Shown in pieces: positions 9,001 through 12,000 of a stretch of 64,000 nt of DNA; positions within the stretch are counted from its first letter, which is position 1, and each line of letters opens with the position of its first letter. The stretch is from Escherichia coli (GTDB taxonomy: Bacteria; Pseudomonadota; Gammaproteobacteria; Enterobacterales; Enterobacteriaceae): the NCBI RefSeq assembly GCF_013315695.1, contig NZ_CP054353.1. One strand, given 5' to 3'. Made by a program: the position numbers.

Positions 9001-12000
9001 GGGCAGTCCCGGATAGTCAGGGCTGTAGAGATTTGACTACCCCCTCCCCACTGGATTCAGGTTACTGCTATTCCGTTAAGCGCTGCTTACGGGGATAGCT
9101 GCGTTGTGATTTTGACCATTCAGGTCGCCGCTATTTCCTCACCGATTGGGTGCTACGCGCGCGCGTACTTGTCCCGAAATACCAGAAACCGCCAGCCAGA
9201 GGATGATTTCCCTCTGGTGGTCTACCTTTGCCTCTTGCCGCCATTTAACCGGAAGGCGTTACCGTTCGGTTGCGCTATCCCCATGCGGTGTTGCGTTTCG
9301 GTAACAGCTTTATGCAGGTCGCCAAATTCCTCAACCTTCACGGGCGGGCGCTTCACGTTCTCCAGACACGTTTCACGGCGGCGCTTTATCCATTCCCGAT
9401 CATCGTCCTCGGTGCATAACAGCATGACTTCCATCCATCGTGCGGCAGCTCTCCGGTATAGCCCTTTTGACTCCAGCTCTTCAGCTTTCCTGTCCCTTAT
9501 CATTTCTGCCTCTCAGATTATATAGATAAGCAAAAAGGTGTTGGTTCAGTTGGTTCAGTTGGTTCAGTTGGTTCAGTTGGTTCAATTTGTAAAGATTGTT
9601 GTTTTTATTGTGTTTTTTCTGAAATATTGAACCAACATCAACTCATTTTGAACCAACACAGCCCAGCTCTGAACCAACAACACAGCGATAGATTTGTGAT
9701 TGGTCCGTTATTTTCTGGCTGATATTTGAGCGTATAACAGTGTTATACAGTGGTATACTGTATGGATATTACTCACTGATATGGTCTTTGCAATGAGCAA
9801 ATCTAATCTGGTCGCGTTCCGCATCCCATCTGAATTGCAGGATGAGTTTAATCGGTCTGTTCTCGCTTCTGGAGGAGATAAAACCTCCTGGCTTGTTGAT
9901 GCGATTCGCATGAAGCTGGGGCAGCCGGAAAAGTCTATTGATTCACGAATGCTTGGGCTGGTGGAGCGCATGGAAAAAGCCGCTGCGTCGCTTATTGCCG
10001 GAAAGCCGAACATCCCACCAAAACCATATAACGAAACGGCAGTTATAAAGATCATTGCCGATACCATCCAACAGGGATTTGATAATGGGCGTGTGATAGC
10101 TGAACGGATCAATGAAGCAGGCTATCAAACAAAAGCTGGTAAAGCGTGGGATAAAGATATTTACAGCGCGTGGAAGCGTCAGGGAAGCAATGCTGAAAAG
10201 CTAAAAGCAGTGATTGATTGTAAGGTCAGCGTATAAACATGAGTGCCCATTGGAAAGTTGCTTGGGCCAATACCTTTATACACCAGCAGGTAGTGACGAT
10301 AGGTGAGGATCAGATATGAAAGGCAGAACGCCACACATTGAACATCAAGCCAACCACTTCCCTGATGTTCGCAATGAGATGATTGCCATTCGCGGTGATA
10401 TGCACGGATTGGAGCGTCGAATTATTGATAAGATTGATGAAAATAGAGATAAGGCCAGTGAAAATCAAAAGTGGATCATCGGCCTGTTGATTTTATCAAT
10501 TCTTATCCCGCTACTTATCGCATTGGTCACAAAATGAATATCCAATGTGTATGCTGTCGATGCTACGCGCGCGTACTTGTCGCAAAATATCAGGCAAAGG
10601 CCAGATTCAGAAAGTCGTGATAACCACCAGCACAACATGAGAGGTCATGTAACGCGATTTATCACACCAGATACATGTGATTGGTGTACCCGCATAAAAC
10701 ATCGTCATAGCGCGTCCTGTGCGCATATACGCCGATAATCAACACATCACCACCACTCTGTCTCATGTAGAGAACAGTTTTATGGTATCCCCCGCCATCG
10801 TGTGCGTACTGGTCGGACGCAGTTGCAAAAAATTTTGCAACTGATACCCCTCGCGCGCGTACTGGTCACGAAATTGGTGTTTTGCTGTGGCAGTGATATC
10901 AGAAAAATCTTCCTGTTTCACATAAAGCGGATATGCGCGTACTGTAACGGCCCCATCAACTGGGAGCGGACTTGAAATCCCGACCCAAGCTATGTACCAA
11001 ATGCCATGTCTTGGATATATGATGATTGCCATTCTAAACAACGCTAAAGGGGGTTGGTGTGAGCAGAAAAGATACTAAAGAATTGCTAACTATCTGCATG
11101 GTGTACTTTTCAATTTATTTTTGTGCATACATGATAGTCCCAGATGAGTTTGAACATGGCAGTATTATTTATTCCATAACATTCTATTTTTTAGAGCTAA
11201 CACCAATTTTGGCTATCCTTTTGGGAATACATATTTATTTTTCCTTAAAAAAAGAATCGACTAATTGGGAGAAGGTATGGAGAGACAGAGGATTTCTAAC
11301 ATCACCTAAAGATGATGCATATGAGAGTGATTTTTCTGACTTTATAACAAACTACTACTCCAGCGAACAATTCAAAAATAGACTGTCTGATGTTTGGGAA
11401 ACAGCAATGTATTCCATAGGGATTATATTATTGATACTTACTGGTATTGCTCAATATGTTTTTAACATTGACTTATCATTAAATCCTGAAAATTTAATAT
11501 CGCCATTGATTTTTGGTGAGATATTGATCTTCTCATTCGGAATTTTCTTGAGTGTTGTTCTCTGCTCATTATGCAAGCTACTGACTAACAGGTATCCGGG
11601 TGAAGCAAGGAGAGCAAGAAAGGCAAATCCATATTATCTTTTATTTCCTAATGGAGACAGCAGAGATATCTAAGCCATCCATGGCTAACCAGTTATTGAG
11701 CTTCTTTTTGTGATGCCTGTGCGACTCTGGTGAGCGATTGTGTGACCGTACTGATCGCTCTGTCATATGCTGTGCTACCTTTTGGCGTATTTGCCAGACG
11801 TAACAAGGCATTTCGTATAACAGGGCTTTCGTATGCCTTCGCTGCTCCGCCTACGGCACCAGCAGCAGGAACAACAAACGCAGCCGTTTTTAGCATCCCC
11901 GCTAATACTGCTGCGTTTATGATGCCACCACCAACTAACAATCCATAAAGCTGCTGACCATTTAAGTTTTGAACGTTCGCTTTTGCCGCGTGTCTTGTAT

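What the first reader, a model, noticed from the sequence alone, without database searches (positions are those of the whole stretch)
10316..11673. AT-rich moron-like cassette: small C-terminally anchored protein plus 4-TM membrane protein
The 204-aa gene has strikingly lower GC than its flanks and encodes a 4-TM protein with no recognised family; just upstream is a 73-aa protein with a single C-terminal TM helix. Small membrane proteins in compositionally foreign cassettes inside mobile elements are often abortive-infection effectors, superinfection-exclusion factors or toxins. This is the best candidate here for an uncharacterised phage-defence or toxin-like module.
Basis: partly seen in the sequence, partly recalled or inferred. 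Interest (0 to 1): 0.65.

Follow-up and report, generated by a model that had tools for sequence, protein, structure and literature searches.

The report
Divergent SieA-type phage exclusion gene
The AT-rich 204-aa membrane gene is a very divergent relative of phage P22's SieA, a protein that stops related phages injecting their DNA, sitting in its usual place beside the phage "ejection protein" gene; the small 73-aa gene upstream is separate, swappable cargo and not its partner.

Summary
The ORFs, the four TM helices and the GC dip (0.33 vs 0.49; lowest 0.5% of windows) are real. They are not a two-gene cassette.

The 204-aa gene (11059-11673) converges, 19 nt apart, on a P22 gp16-family ejection-protein gene. 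That is the layout of P22 gene 16/sieA. Homology to SieA is solid:
- hhalign 99% probability, E 9e-18 over 182 columns
- conserved cytoplasmic RYPGEA..K motif
- AlphaFold/Foldseek matches to annotated SieA at probability 1.0

Homologues in Citrobacter, Serratia and Providencia occupy the sieA slot (Mnt | gene | gp16) of complete P22-like prophages. Low GC is a family trait; P22 sieA is 34%.

The clade is not type A or B, is missed by Pfam SIEA (PF26849), and is probably a fourth SieA type.

In E. coli (102 of 5,426 genomes) it rides on a thrW satellite-like island. The island has a primase, iterons and intact ejection-protein genes but no capsid or tail genes. In this window IS1 has broken it.

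The 73-aa tail-anchored protein lies in a variable slot that holds an Abi gene in another strain, and it assorts independently.

Most likely function: an inner-membrane block to DNA injection by P22-like phages. This is inferred, not tested.

The parts
11059..11673 (+). sieA-like gene: 204-aa, 4-TM inner-membrane protein of a divergent SieA lineage (probably a fourth sequence type)
   Evidence: PHROG 7745 SieA-like, E 4.4e-4. BLASTP E 8e-8 to P22 SieA and 2e-9 to HS1 SieA. hhalign 99.0%, E 9.2e-18. Motif NRYPGEARRARK and the SxExxxNRxxD block. TM topology. AF2 pLDDT 87. Foldseek probability 1.0 to SieA proteins.
11693..13798 (-). P22 gp16-family DNA ejection protein gene (701 aa, intact), convergent with the sieA-like gene across a 19-nt gap. 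gp16 is a genetic target of SieA in P22.
   Evidence: RefSeq annotation and PHROG 770/29117. Same layout as P22 gene 16/sieA with a 22-nt gap. 76% identical to the gp16 of the Citrobacter P22-like prophage that carries the closest SieA-like homologue.
10557..11058 (.). Conserved upstream block, co-inherited with the slot gene and gp16. GC is normal and there is no convincing coding sequence. It holds the Shine-Dalgarno sequence and presumably the promoter. Near its 3' end (about 11020 onward, running a few codons past 11058) is a short out-of-frame remnant, MMIAILNNAKGGW.., of the start of an alternative slot gene.
   Evidence: 99% identical in L013 and L014 while the sequence further upstream differs. 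94% identical to L018 up to window 11063, where an unrelated 131-aa gene begins MIAILNKAKG. Only a weak promoter-like site, TATGAT at 11018-11023.
10316..10537 (+). 73-aa tail-anchored membrane protein (N-terminal helical part, TM 54-72). Independent cargo inside a variable slot (about 10192-10556). Function unknown.
   Evidence: PHROG 6324 (unknown function) 5e-11; weak holin PHROG 689, 3e-3. No Pfam hit. Replaced by an Abi-family gene in strain 97-3250 and by other DNA in strain 789. Absent from the Citrobacter, Serratia and Providencia loci. Recurs in the gene 16-gene 9 interval of other E. coli P22-like prophages beside non-SieA slot genes.
9793..10236 (+). 147-aa protein with a ribbon-helix-helix-like N-terminus, in the position that mnt holds in P22-like phages (upstream, same strand)
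   Evidence: Weak similarity to P22 Mnt over residues 9-45. PHROG 30270, 3e-4. No Pfam or NCBIfam hit. Retained with Abi in L013 and with the 66-aa homologue in L018.
9540..9678 (.). Iteron-like repeats: GTTGGTTCA x5 in tandem (9540-9584), then three spaced inverted copies (9628, 9649, 9670)
   Evidence: Copy number ranges from 2 to 5 between strains. A second array of the same 9-mer lies beside the primase gene in intact islands.
9222..9503 (-). PerC-family regulator at the distal end of the island
   Evidence: RefSeq annotation and PHROG 994.
13863..14560 (+). IS1 (InsA/InsB) inserted right after gp16. It has separated the gp20 and gp7 genes and the replication/integration module from this fragment.
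   Evidence: A frameshifted gp20 gene lies next to another IS1 copy about 20 kb away in the matching strain MSB1_4I.

Best explanation
The 204-aa gene encodes a SieA-family superinfection-exclusion protein. It inserts into the inner membrane with four helices, N- and C-termini in the cytoplasm. A helical cytoplasmic domain lies between TM2 and TM3, and the conserved RYPGEA..K motif sits just after TM4.

By analogy with P22 and HS1 SieA, it prevents superinfecting P22-like podophages from completing DNA delivery. It would do this by interfering with the trans-envelope conduit built from ejection proteins gp20 and gp16, either directly or by occluding a host inner-membrane partner. It acts alone and does not kill the cell.

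Shown here: homology, motif, predicted topology and fold, and conserved gene position. Inferred: membrane location, the block to injection, its specificity, and expression in this strain.

The gene is inherited as a unit with gp16 and a 500-bp upstream block. In E. coli this unit sits on a thrW-integrated, primase- and iteron-bearing satellite-like island, which IS1 has fragmented in this window. The 73-aa gene is unrelated, exchangeable cargo in an adjacent variable slot.
For: Position. The gene is convergent with the gp16 gene across 19 nt, as in P22 (22 nt). Homologues in Citrobacter (50% identity), Serratia fonticola (41%) and Providencia/Proteus (33%) lie between an Mnt-type repressor and gp16 in complete P22-like prophages with tailspike, Ant, Arc, gp20, gp7, coat and portal.

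Sequence. PHROG 7745, E 4.4e-4 for the query, 2.2e-6 for P0003 and 6.5e-21 for HS1. BLASTP 8e-8 and 2e-9. hhalign 99.0%, E 9.2e-18, 182 columns. The query keeps the superfamily's invariant or near-invariant N107, R108, D111, R178 and P180 across 132 sequences. The motif FxRYPxEAxxFNK reported in PMC10883804 appears as TNRYPGEARRARK.

Topology. Four TM helices, N-in and C-in, with the extra N-terminal TM helix described for the longer SieA types.

Fold. Foldseek probability 1.0 to 'Superinfection exclusion protein A' of Salmonella, to a 212-aa Salmonella type-B-like protein, and to proteins from the paper's type C reference strains.

Composition. Low GC is shared by all sieA genes examined.

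Conservation. Intact and at least 99% identical in 101 of the 102 E. coli genomes that carry it.

Function of characterised relatives. SieA is necessary and sufficient, sits in the inner membrane, blocks injection, and works in E. coli. Types A and B, only 24% identical, give indistinguishable exclusion (PMC10883804).
Against: There is no experimental evidence for this protein.

Identity to characterised SieA proteins is only 29-34%, and only over the C-terminal half in pairwise BLAST.

The Pfam SIEA family (PF26849) has no recorded hit on any member of the clade.

The motif's flanking F and FN residues are replaced, and the near-invariant W at query position 152 is F.

No convincing sigma-70 promoter was found upstream.

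In E. coli the gene is not in a P22-like prophage, and in this window the island is broken by IS1, so its regulation could differ.
Confidence: 0.72

Rival explanations
1. A SieA homologue whose role has shifted to serve the satellite-like island. For example, it might discriminate between the island's own gp20/gp16 and those of a helper or competitor phage. Alternatively it is a functionless relic kept by linkage to gp16.
For: In E. coli the gene sits on islands that carry intact gp14-gp7-gp20-gp16 or gp20-gp16 genes beside a TOPRIM/DUF927 primase and iteron arrays, with no capsid, portal, terminase or tailspike genes. The clade is the most divergent SieA branch among enterobacteria.
Against: The same clade occupies the ordinary sieA slot of ordinary P22-like prophages in three other genera. 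All family-invariant residues are kept. The ORF is intact in 101 of 102 genomes.
Confidence: 0.15
2. An abortive-infection effector or membrane toxin: the protein kills or depolarises the cell upon infection.
For: It is a small multi-TM protein in an AT-rich gene on a mobile element. An Abi-family gene occupies the neighbouring variable slot in strain 97-3250. Hofer et al. 1995, as cited in the supplement to PMC10883804, reported slower growth when SieA was overproduced from a multicopy plasmid.
Against: There is no PADLOC hit. There is clear homology to SieA, which blocks DNA entry and in single copy has minimal effect on growth. No partner antitoxin-like gene is conserved next to it.
Confidence: 0.05
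3. A two-component module in which the 73-aa tail-anchored protein and the 204-aa protein work together.
For: The two genes are on the same strand and both encode membrane proteins. They co-occur in the window and in strains such as CP062910.
Against: There is a 520-bp gap between them. The 73-aa gene is replaced by Abi or other DNA in strains that keep the 204-aa gene at 99% identity. It is absent from all three other genera. Conversely, 73-aa homologues sit beside unrelated slot genes of 131, 109 or 75 aa. P22 SieA is sufficient on its own.
Confidence: 0.05

Closest known systems
SieA of Salmonella phage P22 (type A; Hofer et al. 1995; Leavitt et al. 2024, PMC10883804)
   Same: Gene position convergent with gene 16. 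AT-rich gene (33.7% GC). Inner-membrane helical protein. The SxExxxNRxxD block and the cytoplasmic RYPGEA..K motif. Homologous by BLASTP (E 8e-8), hhalign (99%) and Foldseek (probability 1.0).
   Different: P22 SieA is 164 aa with 3 predicted TM helices and lacks the N-terminal TM helix. It is only 29% identical, over 108 aa. P22 SieA would not retrieve the query clade in an nr-scale BLASTP search (E 79 to 16,000).
SieA of E. coli prophage HS1 (type B, EcHS_A0321; shown to exclude P22-like phages)
   Same: Similar length (212 vs 204 aa). The extra N-terminal TM helix. NRYPGEAR is identical. Also at thrW, next to gp16.
   Different: 34% identity, restricted to 118 aa of the C-terminal half. HS1 is recognised by Pfam SIEA PF26849 and the query clade is not. 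HS1 sits in a complete P22-like prophage. The E. coli query sits in a primase island.
Type C SieA (Providencia/Morganella/Proteus; PMC10883804), most likely the P0008-like group
   Same: About 200 aa, 4 TM helices, between Mnt and gp16. Structural matches to proteins of the paper's two type C reference strains, TM-score 0.60-0.61.
   Different: 19-26% identity to the query. The P0008-like group is Pfam SIEA-positive and closer to type B (37-41%) than to the query clade. I could not retrieve MU9_2893 or HMPREF1563_1315, so the assignment of type C is unverified.
Other inner-membrane injection blockers, such as T4 Imm, HK97 gp15 and lactococcal Sie2009 (recalled from my own knowledge, not tested here)
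   Same: Small membrane proteins, encoded by a prophage or phage, that stop DNA entry without killing the host.
   Different: No sequence or fold relationship was detected in PHROGs, PDB or BFVD searches.

Membership tests
SieA superinfection-exclusion family (P22 SieA; PHROG 7745; Pfam PF26849 SIEA) | Detectable sequence homology to characterised SieA proteins (P22 type A, HS1 type B) | tested here: met
   BLASTP 8e-8 and 2e-9. PHROG 7745, 4.4e-4. hhalign 99.0%, E 9.2e-18 over 182 columns.
SieA superinfection-exclusion family (P22 SieA; PHROG 7745; Pfam PF26849 SIEA) | Conserved cytoplasmic C-terminal motif FxRYPxEAxxFNK (PMC10883804) | tested here: met
   The query has TNRYPGEARRARK. The RYPxEA core and the terminal K are kept, while F and FN are replaced. 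R178 and P180 are near-invariant across 132 superfamily members.
SieA superinfection-exclusion family (P22 SieA; PHROG 7745; Pfam PF26849 SIEA) | Gene lies immediately beside, and convergent with, the gene 16 (ejection protein) homologue | tested here: met
   19-nt gap in the window against 22 nt in P22. The same holds in Citrobacter, Serratia and Providencia.
SieA superinfection-exclusion family (P22 SieA; PHROG 7745; Pfam PF26849 SIEA) | Resides in a P22-like prophage between gene 16 and gene 9 (tailspike) | tested here: not met
   Not met for the window or for E. coli. The host element is a thrW primase island without tailspike, capsid or portal genes, and here it is broken by IS1. It is met for the clade's homologues in three other genera. 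This is a contextual feature, not a property of the protein.
SieA superinfection-exclusion family (P22 SieA; PHROG 7745; Pfam PF26849 SIEA) | Integral inner-membrane protein with 3 TM helices (type A) or 4 (types B and C), C-terminus cytoplasmic | tested here: met
   By prediction only. Hydropathy and the positive-inside rule. AF2 helices 3-30, 36-66, 105-141 and 150-176. The actual location in the cell was not tested.
SieA superinfection-exclusion family (P22 SieA; PHROG 7745; Pfam PF26849 SIEA) | Recognised by the curated Pfam model PF26849 (SIEA) | tested here: not met
   Precomputed Pfam records list PF26849 for HS1 SieA and the Morganella group. They list nothing for any query-clade member. 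The local Pfam-A copy lacks this model.
SieA superinfection-exclusion family (P22 SieA; PHROG 7745; Pfam PF26849 SIEA) | Blocks DNA injection by P22-like phages, and is necessary and sufficient for that block | not testable with these tools
   Needs plating, K+ efflux and escape-mutant experiments.
SieA superinfection-exclusion family (P22 SieA; PHROG 7745; Pfam PF26849 SIEA) | Expressed from the prophage or island in the resting state from its own promoter | tested here: inconclusive
   There is a good Shine-Dalgarno sequence but only a weak promoter-like site. The 500-bp upstream block is co-conserved with the gene. In other genera the gene follows mnt by 13-42 nt.
SieA sequence types A, B and C of Leavitt et al. 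2024 | Falls within type A or type B, the only types the paper reports for E. coli | tested here: not met
   29% over 108 aa to type A and 34% over 118 aa to type B. The clade's own members align over their full length at 33-50%.
SieA sequence types A, B and C of Leavitt et al. 2024 | Falls within type C (Providencia/Morganella/Proteus) | tested here: inconclusive
   The reference sequences could not be retrieved. Proteins from the two reference strains are 25% and 19% identical to the query. The BLAST-detectable, Pfam-positive P0008-like group spans the three genera and is distinct from the query clade. However, the query clade also has Providencia and Proteus members.
Known anti-phage defence, Abi or toxin systems (PADLOC) | Match to any PADLOC defence-protein model | tested here: not met
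   Zero hits for the 204-aa, 73-aa, 147-aa, PerC and gp16 proteins.
Holin (considered for the 73-aa protein) | Significant match to a holin family, and location in a lysis cassette | tested here: inconclusive
   PHROG 689 (holin) only at E 3e-3. The best hit is PHROG 6324, of unknown function, at 5e-11. There is no Pfam hit, and the gene is not next to an endolysin.

The most novel reading that the evidence does not exclude
The E. coli host element is a new kind of phage satellite that exploits P22-like helper phages. It has a P4-style primase and two iteron arrays, and it carries its own ejection-protein set (gp14-gp7-gp20-gp16) together with a matched, divergent SieA. The satellite could load its own DNA-delivery proteins into helper capsids, while its SieA shuts the door on the helper and other P22-like phages. 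The slot next to gp16, which in other elements holds unrelated 131-, 109- or 75-aa membrane proteins, would then be a hotspot of undescribed injection blockers.
Probability: 0.1. Interest if true: 0.75.

Novelty: new member of a known kind. Interest (0 to 1): 0.4.

Why it matters
SieA is one of the few superinfection-exclusion systems with a mechanistic model: an inner-membrane block of the gp20/gp16 DNA conduit. How such divergent SieA proteins recognise such divergent ejection proteins is an open question.

This lineage extends the family beyond what BLASTP and Pfam currently detect. It shows that E. coli carries a SieA that is neither type A nor type B. It narrows the truly invariant residues to an N-R..D block before TM3 and R-x-P after TM4, which are natural mutagenesis targets.

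In about 2% of complete E. coli genomes the gene is uncoupled from a complete P22-like prophage and sits on a small island with ejection-protein genes. So SieA-type immunity to P22-like phages can persist without a resident phage, which is relevant for predicting phage host range. For routine annotation, these 'hypothetical proteins' can be renamed SieA-like.

Tried and rejected
Searches that found nothing useful:
- Local Pfam-A, NCBIfam and PADLOC on the 204-aa, 73-aa and 147-aa proteins. The weak MnhB, DUF2162 and SLATT hits are hydrophobic-segment noise.
- tblastn of the 204-aa and 73-aa proteins against 50,697 phage genomes: no match. blastn of the spacer against phages: no match.
- Foldseek against PDB and BFVD, and an HMM search of PDB sequences: no significant match.
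- Rfam: nothing at gathering thresholds in the window. The only sub-threshold hit is a spurious plant miRNA model on the 9-mer repeats.
- Strict and relaxed promoter scans and a terminator scan: nothing convincing.

Ideas tested and dropped:
- 73-aa protein against P22 orf59a: no similarity.
- The first AlphaFold run, with a 4-sequence alignment, gave pLDDT 56 and was discarded.
- Remnants of mnt, orf59a or the Citrobacter 105-aa gene in window 9500-11100: none.
- The minus-strand ORF 10763-11041, and a frameshift-joined version of it, as a degraded toxin-like gene: no family hit. I dropped this idea.
- The alternative slot genes (131, 109, 75 aa) as cryptic SieA relatives: no BLASTP similarity to any of about 150 superfamily members.

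Not resolved: I tried to locate the paper's type C reference sequences through cluster listings and did not find them.
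Full report
**1. What is in the sequence**

The two ORFs exist as described: 10316-10537 (+, 73 aa) and 11059-11673 (+, 204 aa). The 204-aa ORF starts at a GTG preceded by AAAGGGGG. RefSeq annotates both as hypothetical proteins in matching E. coli genomes.

The 204-aa gene has 33.2% GC against 49% for the window. That is z = -2.5, in the lowest 0.46% of 615-bp windows, and all three codon positions are depressed.

Hydropathy gives four TM segments (9-27, 39-57, 119-137, 150-168). The charge distribution places both termini and the 61-residue loop between TM2 and TM3 in the cytoplasm. 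The 73-aa protein has one C-terminal TM segment, 54-72.

The two genes are 520 bp apart, separated by DNA of normal GC content.

**2. Context**

The window is E. coli chromosome, identical over this region to strains AF3 and MSB1_4I.

The 701-aa ORF that converges on the 204-aa gene across 19 nt (11693-13798, minus strand) is a P22 gp16-family DNA ejection protein. In phage P22 itself, gene 16 is followed 22 nt later by the convergent sieA gene. Upstream of sieA on the same strand lie orf59a and mnt. So the 204-aa gene sits in the sieA slot.

**3. Homology to SieA**

Sequence evidence:
- PHROG 7745 'superinfection exclusion SieA-like' hits the protein at E 4.4e-4. It hits the Citrobacter homologue at 2.2e-6 and the experimentally characterised HS1 SieA at 6.5e-21.
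- Pairwise BLASTP gives E 8e-8 to P22 SieA (type A) and 2e-9 to HS1 SieA (type B). The invariant blocks are S-x-E-x3-N-R-x2-D before TM3 and RYPGEA..K after TM4.
- The second block is the motif FxRYPxEAxxFNK that Leavitt et al. 2024 (PMC10883804) identify as the most conserved, cytoplasmic part of SieA.
- A profile of the query clade against a profile of types A, B and the Morganella group gives 99.0% probability, E 9.2e-18, over 182 columns, which is essentially full length.

Structural evidence: with a 132-sequence superfamily alignment, AlphaFold gives a confident model (pLDDT 87, pTM 0.74). Foldseek against AFDB50 returns the following, all at probability 1.0 with TM-scores of 0.54-0.65:
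- an annotated 'Superinfection exclusion protein A' of Salmonella (164 aa)
- a 212-aa Salmonella type-B-like protein
- proteins from Providencia alcalifaciens 205/92 and Morganella morganii KT, the two strains the paper lists as type C references

Nothing in PDB or BFVD matches, so the fold has no solved relative.

**4. Conserved synteny of the clade**

An exhaustive HMM search of 1.84 billion representatives found 197 SieA-superfamily clusters.

The query's own clade consists of E. coli, Citrobacter freundii (50% identity), Serratia fonticola (41%) and Providencia/Proteus (33%). These align over their full length.

In all three other genera the gene lies between an Mnt-type repressor and convergent gp16, inside complete P22-like prophages. 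These carry tailspike, Ant, Arc, gp20, gp7, coat, scaffold and portal genes.

Every sieA-slot gene examined is AT-rich (33-38% GC) next to a gp16 gene of 43-50%. P22 sieA itself is 33.7% against 49.9% for gene 16. Low GC is therefore a family trait, not evidence of a foreign insertion here.

**5. Which SieA type?**

The paper states that E. coli and Salmonella SieA proteins are type A or B, and that type C is confined to Providencia, Morganella and Proteus.

The query is neither A nor B. At an nr-scale database size, P22 SieA would not find any member of the clade (E 79 to 16,000). HS1 would find the query only marginally (E 0.005). Both find the Morganella/Proteus penneri/P. alcalifaciens group easily.

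That group is recognised by Pfam PF26849 'SIEA', as is HS1. No member of the query clade has a Pfam hit on record.

Type C is therefore most probably that P0008-like group, and the query clade a fourth, undescribed type. I could not retrieve the two reference sequences to prove this. The query clade also has Providencia and Proteus members, so 'a deep branch of type C' remains possible.

**6. The 'cassette' is not a unit**

Among E. coli islands, window 10557-13807 (upstream block, 204-aa gene, gp16) is 99% conserved. The segment at about 10192-10556, which holds the 73-aa gene, is replaced by an Abi-family gene in strain 97-3250 and by other DNA in strain 789.

The 73-aa protein is absent from the Citrobacter, Serratia and Providencia loci.

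Conversely, its homologues (75-82% identity) occur in the gene 16-gene 9 interval of other E. coli P22-like prophages and in a second island family. There the slot next to gp16 holds unrelated membrane proteins of 109, 75 or 131 aa, none of which matches the SieA superfamily.

The swap point is exact. Window 9420-11063 is 94% identical to L018 up to the start codon region, and a short out-of-frame remnant of the alternative gene's start survives just upstream of the GTG.

The 73-aa protein matches only PHROG 6324 (unknown function) and, weakly, a holin PHROG. Its function remains unknown.

**7. The E. coli host element**

The gene is present in 102 of 5,426 complete E. coli genomes. It is single-copy and chromosomal, and at least 99% identical in 101 of them. 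A 100% identical protein is also recorded under Salmonella Kentucky.

Intact versions sit in an island of about 18 kb at tRNA-Thr (thrW). The gene order is integrase, HTH, AntA/B, DUF4222, Ash, several small ORFs, TOPRIM/DUF927 primase, then gp14-like (DUF2824), gp7, gp20, gp16, the SieA-like gene, the variable slot, an RHH-like 147-aa gene and PerC. There are no capsid, portal, terminase or tailspike genes.

A related island at another chromosomal site has the same plan. The ejection-protein ORFs are intact and divergent from those of E. coli P22-like prophages (24-54% identity). The window's gp16 is 76% identical to that of the Citrobacter prophage carrying the closest SieA-like homologue.

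A 9-mer, GTTGGTTCA, forms a tandem array of 2-5 copies, varying by strain, followed by three inverted copies between PerC and the 147-aa gene. A second array lies beside the primase gene. From my own knowledge, this resembles the ori/crr iterons of satellite P4; that was not tested here. The island therefore looks like a replicative satellite-like element rather than prophage debris.

In the window, IS1 has cut it directly after gp16. The gp20 gene lies elsewhere and is frameshifted.

I found no literature describing such islands.

**8. Mechanism**

[quoted passage not shown] HS1 SieA (type B), although only 24% identical, gives exclusion indistinguishable from P22 SieA.

Inferred for this protein from homology, motif, topology, fold and position: the same inner-membrane block of the gp20/gp16 conduit, acting alone and non-lethally.

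Not shown: expression (there is no clear promoter), membrane location, activity and specificity.

**9. Verdict**

The Abi/toxin option and the two-gene-cassette reading are not supported.

This is a new, divergent member of a known family, and probably a fourth SieA type. In E. coli it has an unusual carrier element, which is the more intriguing loose end.

Noticed in passing
window 9540-9678; also L013 22003-22038, L014 22005-22031, L002 18661-18687, L019 11542-11568: A perfect 9-nt tandem array, GTTGGTTCA x5, is followed by three spaced inverted copies between PerC and the 147-aa gene. The copy number varies from 2 to 5 between strains. A second tandem array of the same 9-mer lies just 3' of the TOPRIM/DUF927 primase gene in intact islands. 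It looks like a two-site iteron system (ori/crr-like).
   Followed up: partly
L013 16001-32615, L014 16001-31375, L002 11635-27888 (thrW); L018-L020 (second site near ligB/yicG): E. coli islands of about 16-18 kb carry an integrase, Ash, AntA/B and a primase, plus intact P22-type ejection-protein genes (gp14-gp7-gp20-gp16, or gp20-gp16 only). They have no capsid, portal, terminase or tailspike genes. They may be an undescribed satellite family associated with P22-like phages. No literature was found.
   Followed up: partly
L018 6684-7079; L015 6291-6620; L016 6291-6518: The slot immediately next to gp16 is a precise swap point. In other E. coli elements it holds unrelated small membrane proteins: 131 aa (multi-TM), 109 aa (N-terminal TM plus coiled coil) and 75 aa (2 TM). 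None matches the SieA superfamily. They are candidates for other injection blockers.
   Followed up: partly
L013 14154-15131 (strain 97-3250), equivalent to window ~10192-10556: An Abi-family protein gene occupies the variable slot that holds the 73-aa gene in the window. This suggests a small defence or cargo hotspot between the RHH-like gene and the sieA upstream block.
   Followed up: no
window 5130-7700: About 2.5 kb after IS2 has no ORF longer than 131 aa, and GC is 0.30-0.38 over 5270-7070. It is unannotated in the matching RefSeq genomes and has no Rfam hit. It may be degraded genes or non-coding DNA.
   Followed up: no
window 13863-14560 and L005 1-750, 3555-4252, 41952-42649: Several IS1A copies in this strain have rearranged the thrW-ykgE region. 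The gp20 gene is frameshifted and sits about 20 kb away next to another IS1 copy. LysR and aldo/keto reductase genes now directly follow the IS1 after gp16.
   Followed up: no
window 8076-8618 (-) and 7724-8083 (+): A pRiA4b ORF-3 family protein (180 aa) and an overlapping, convergent 119-aa hypothetical gene lie between the AT-rich stretch and PerC. They are present in strains AF3 and MSB1_4I but not in the intact islands I examined.
   Followed up: no
AFDB entry A0A606EZ92: A protein 100% identical to the 204-aa product is recorded under Salmonella enterica serovar Kentucky. So the same allele is shared across genera, or the record is mislabelled.
   Followed up: no
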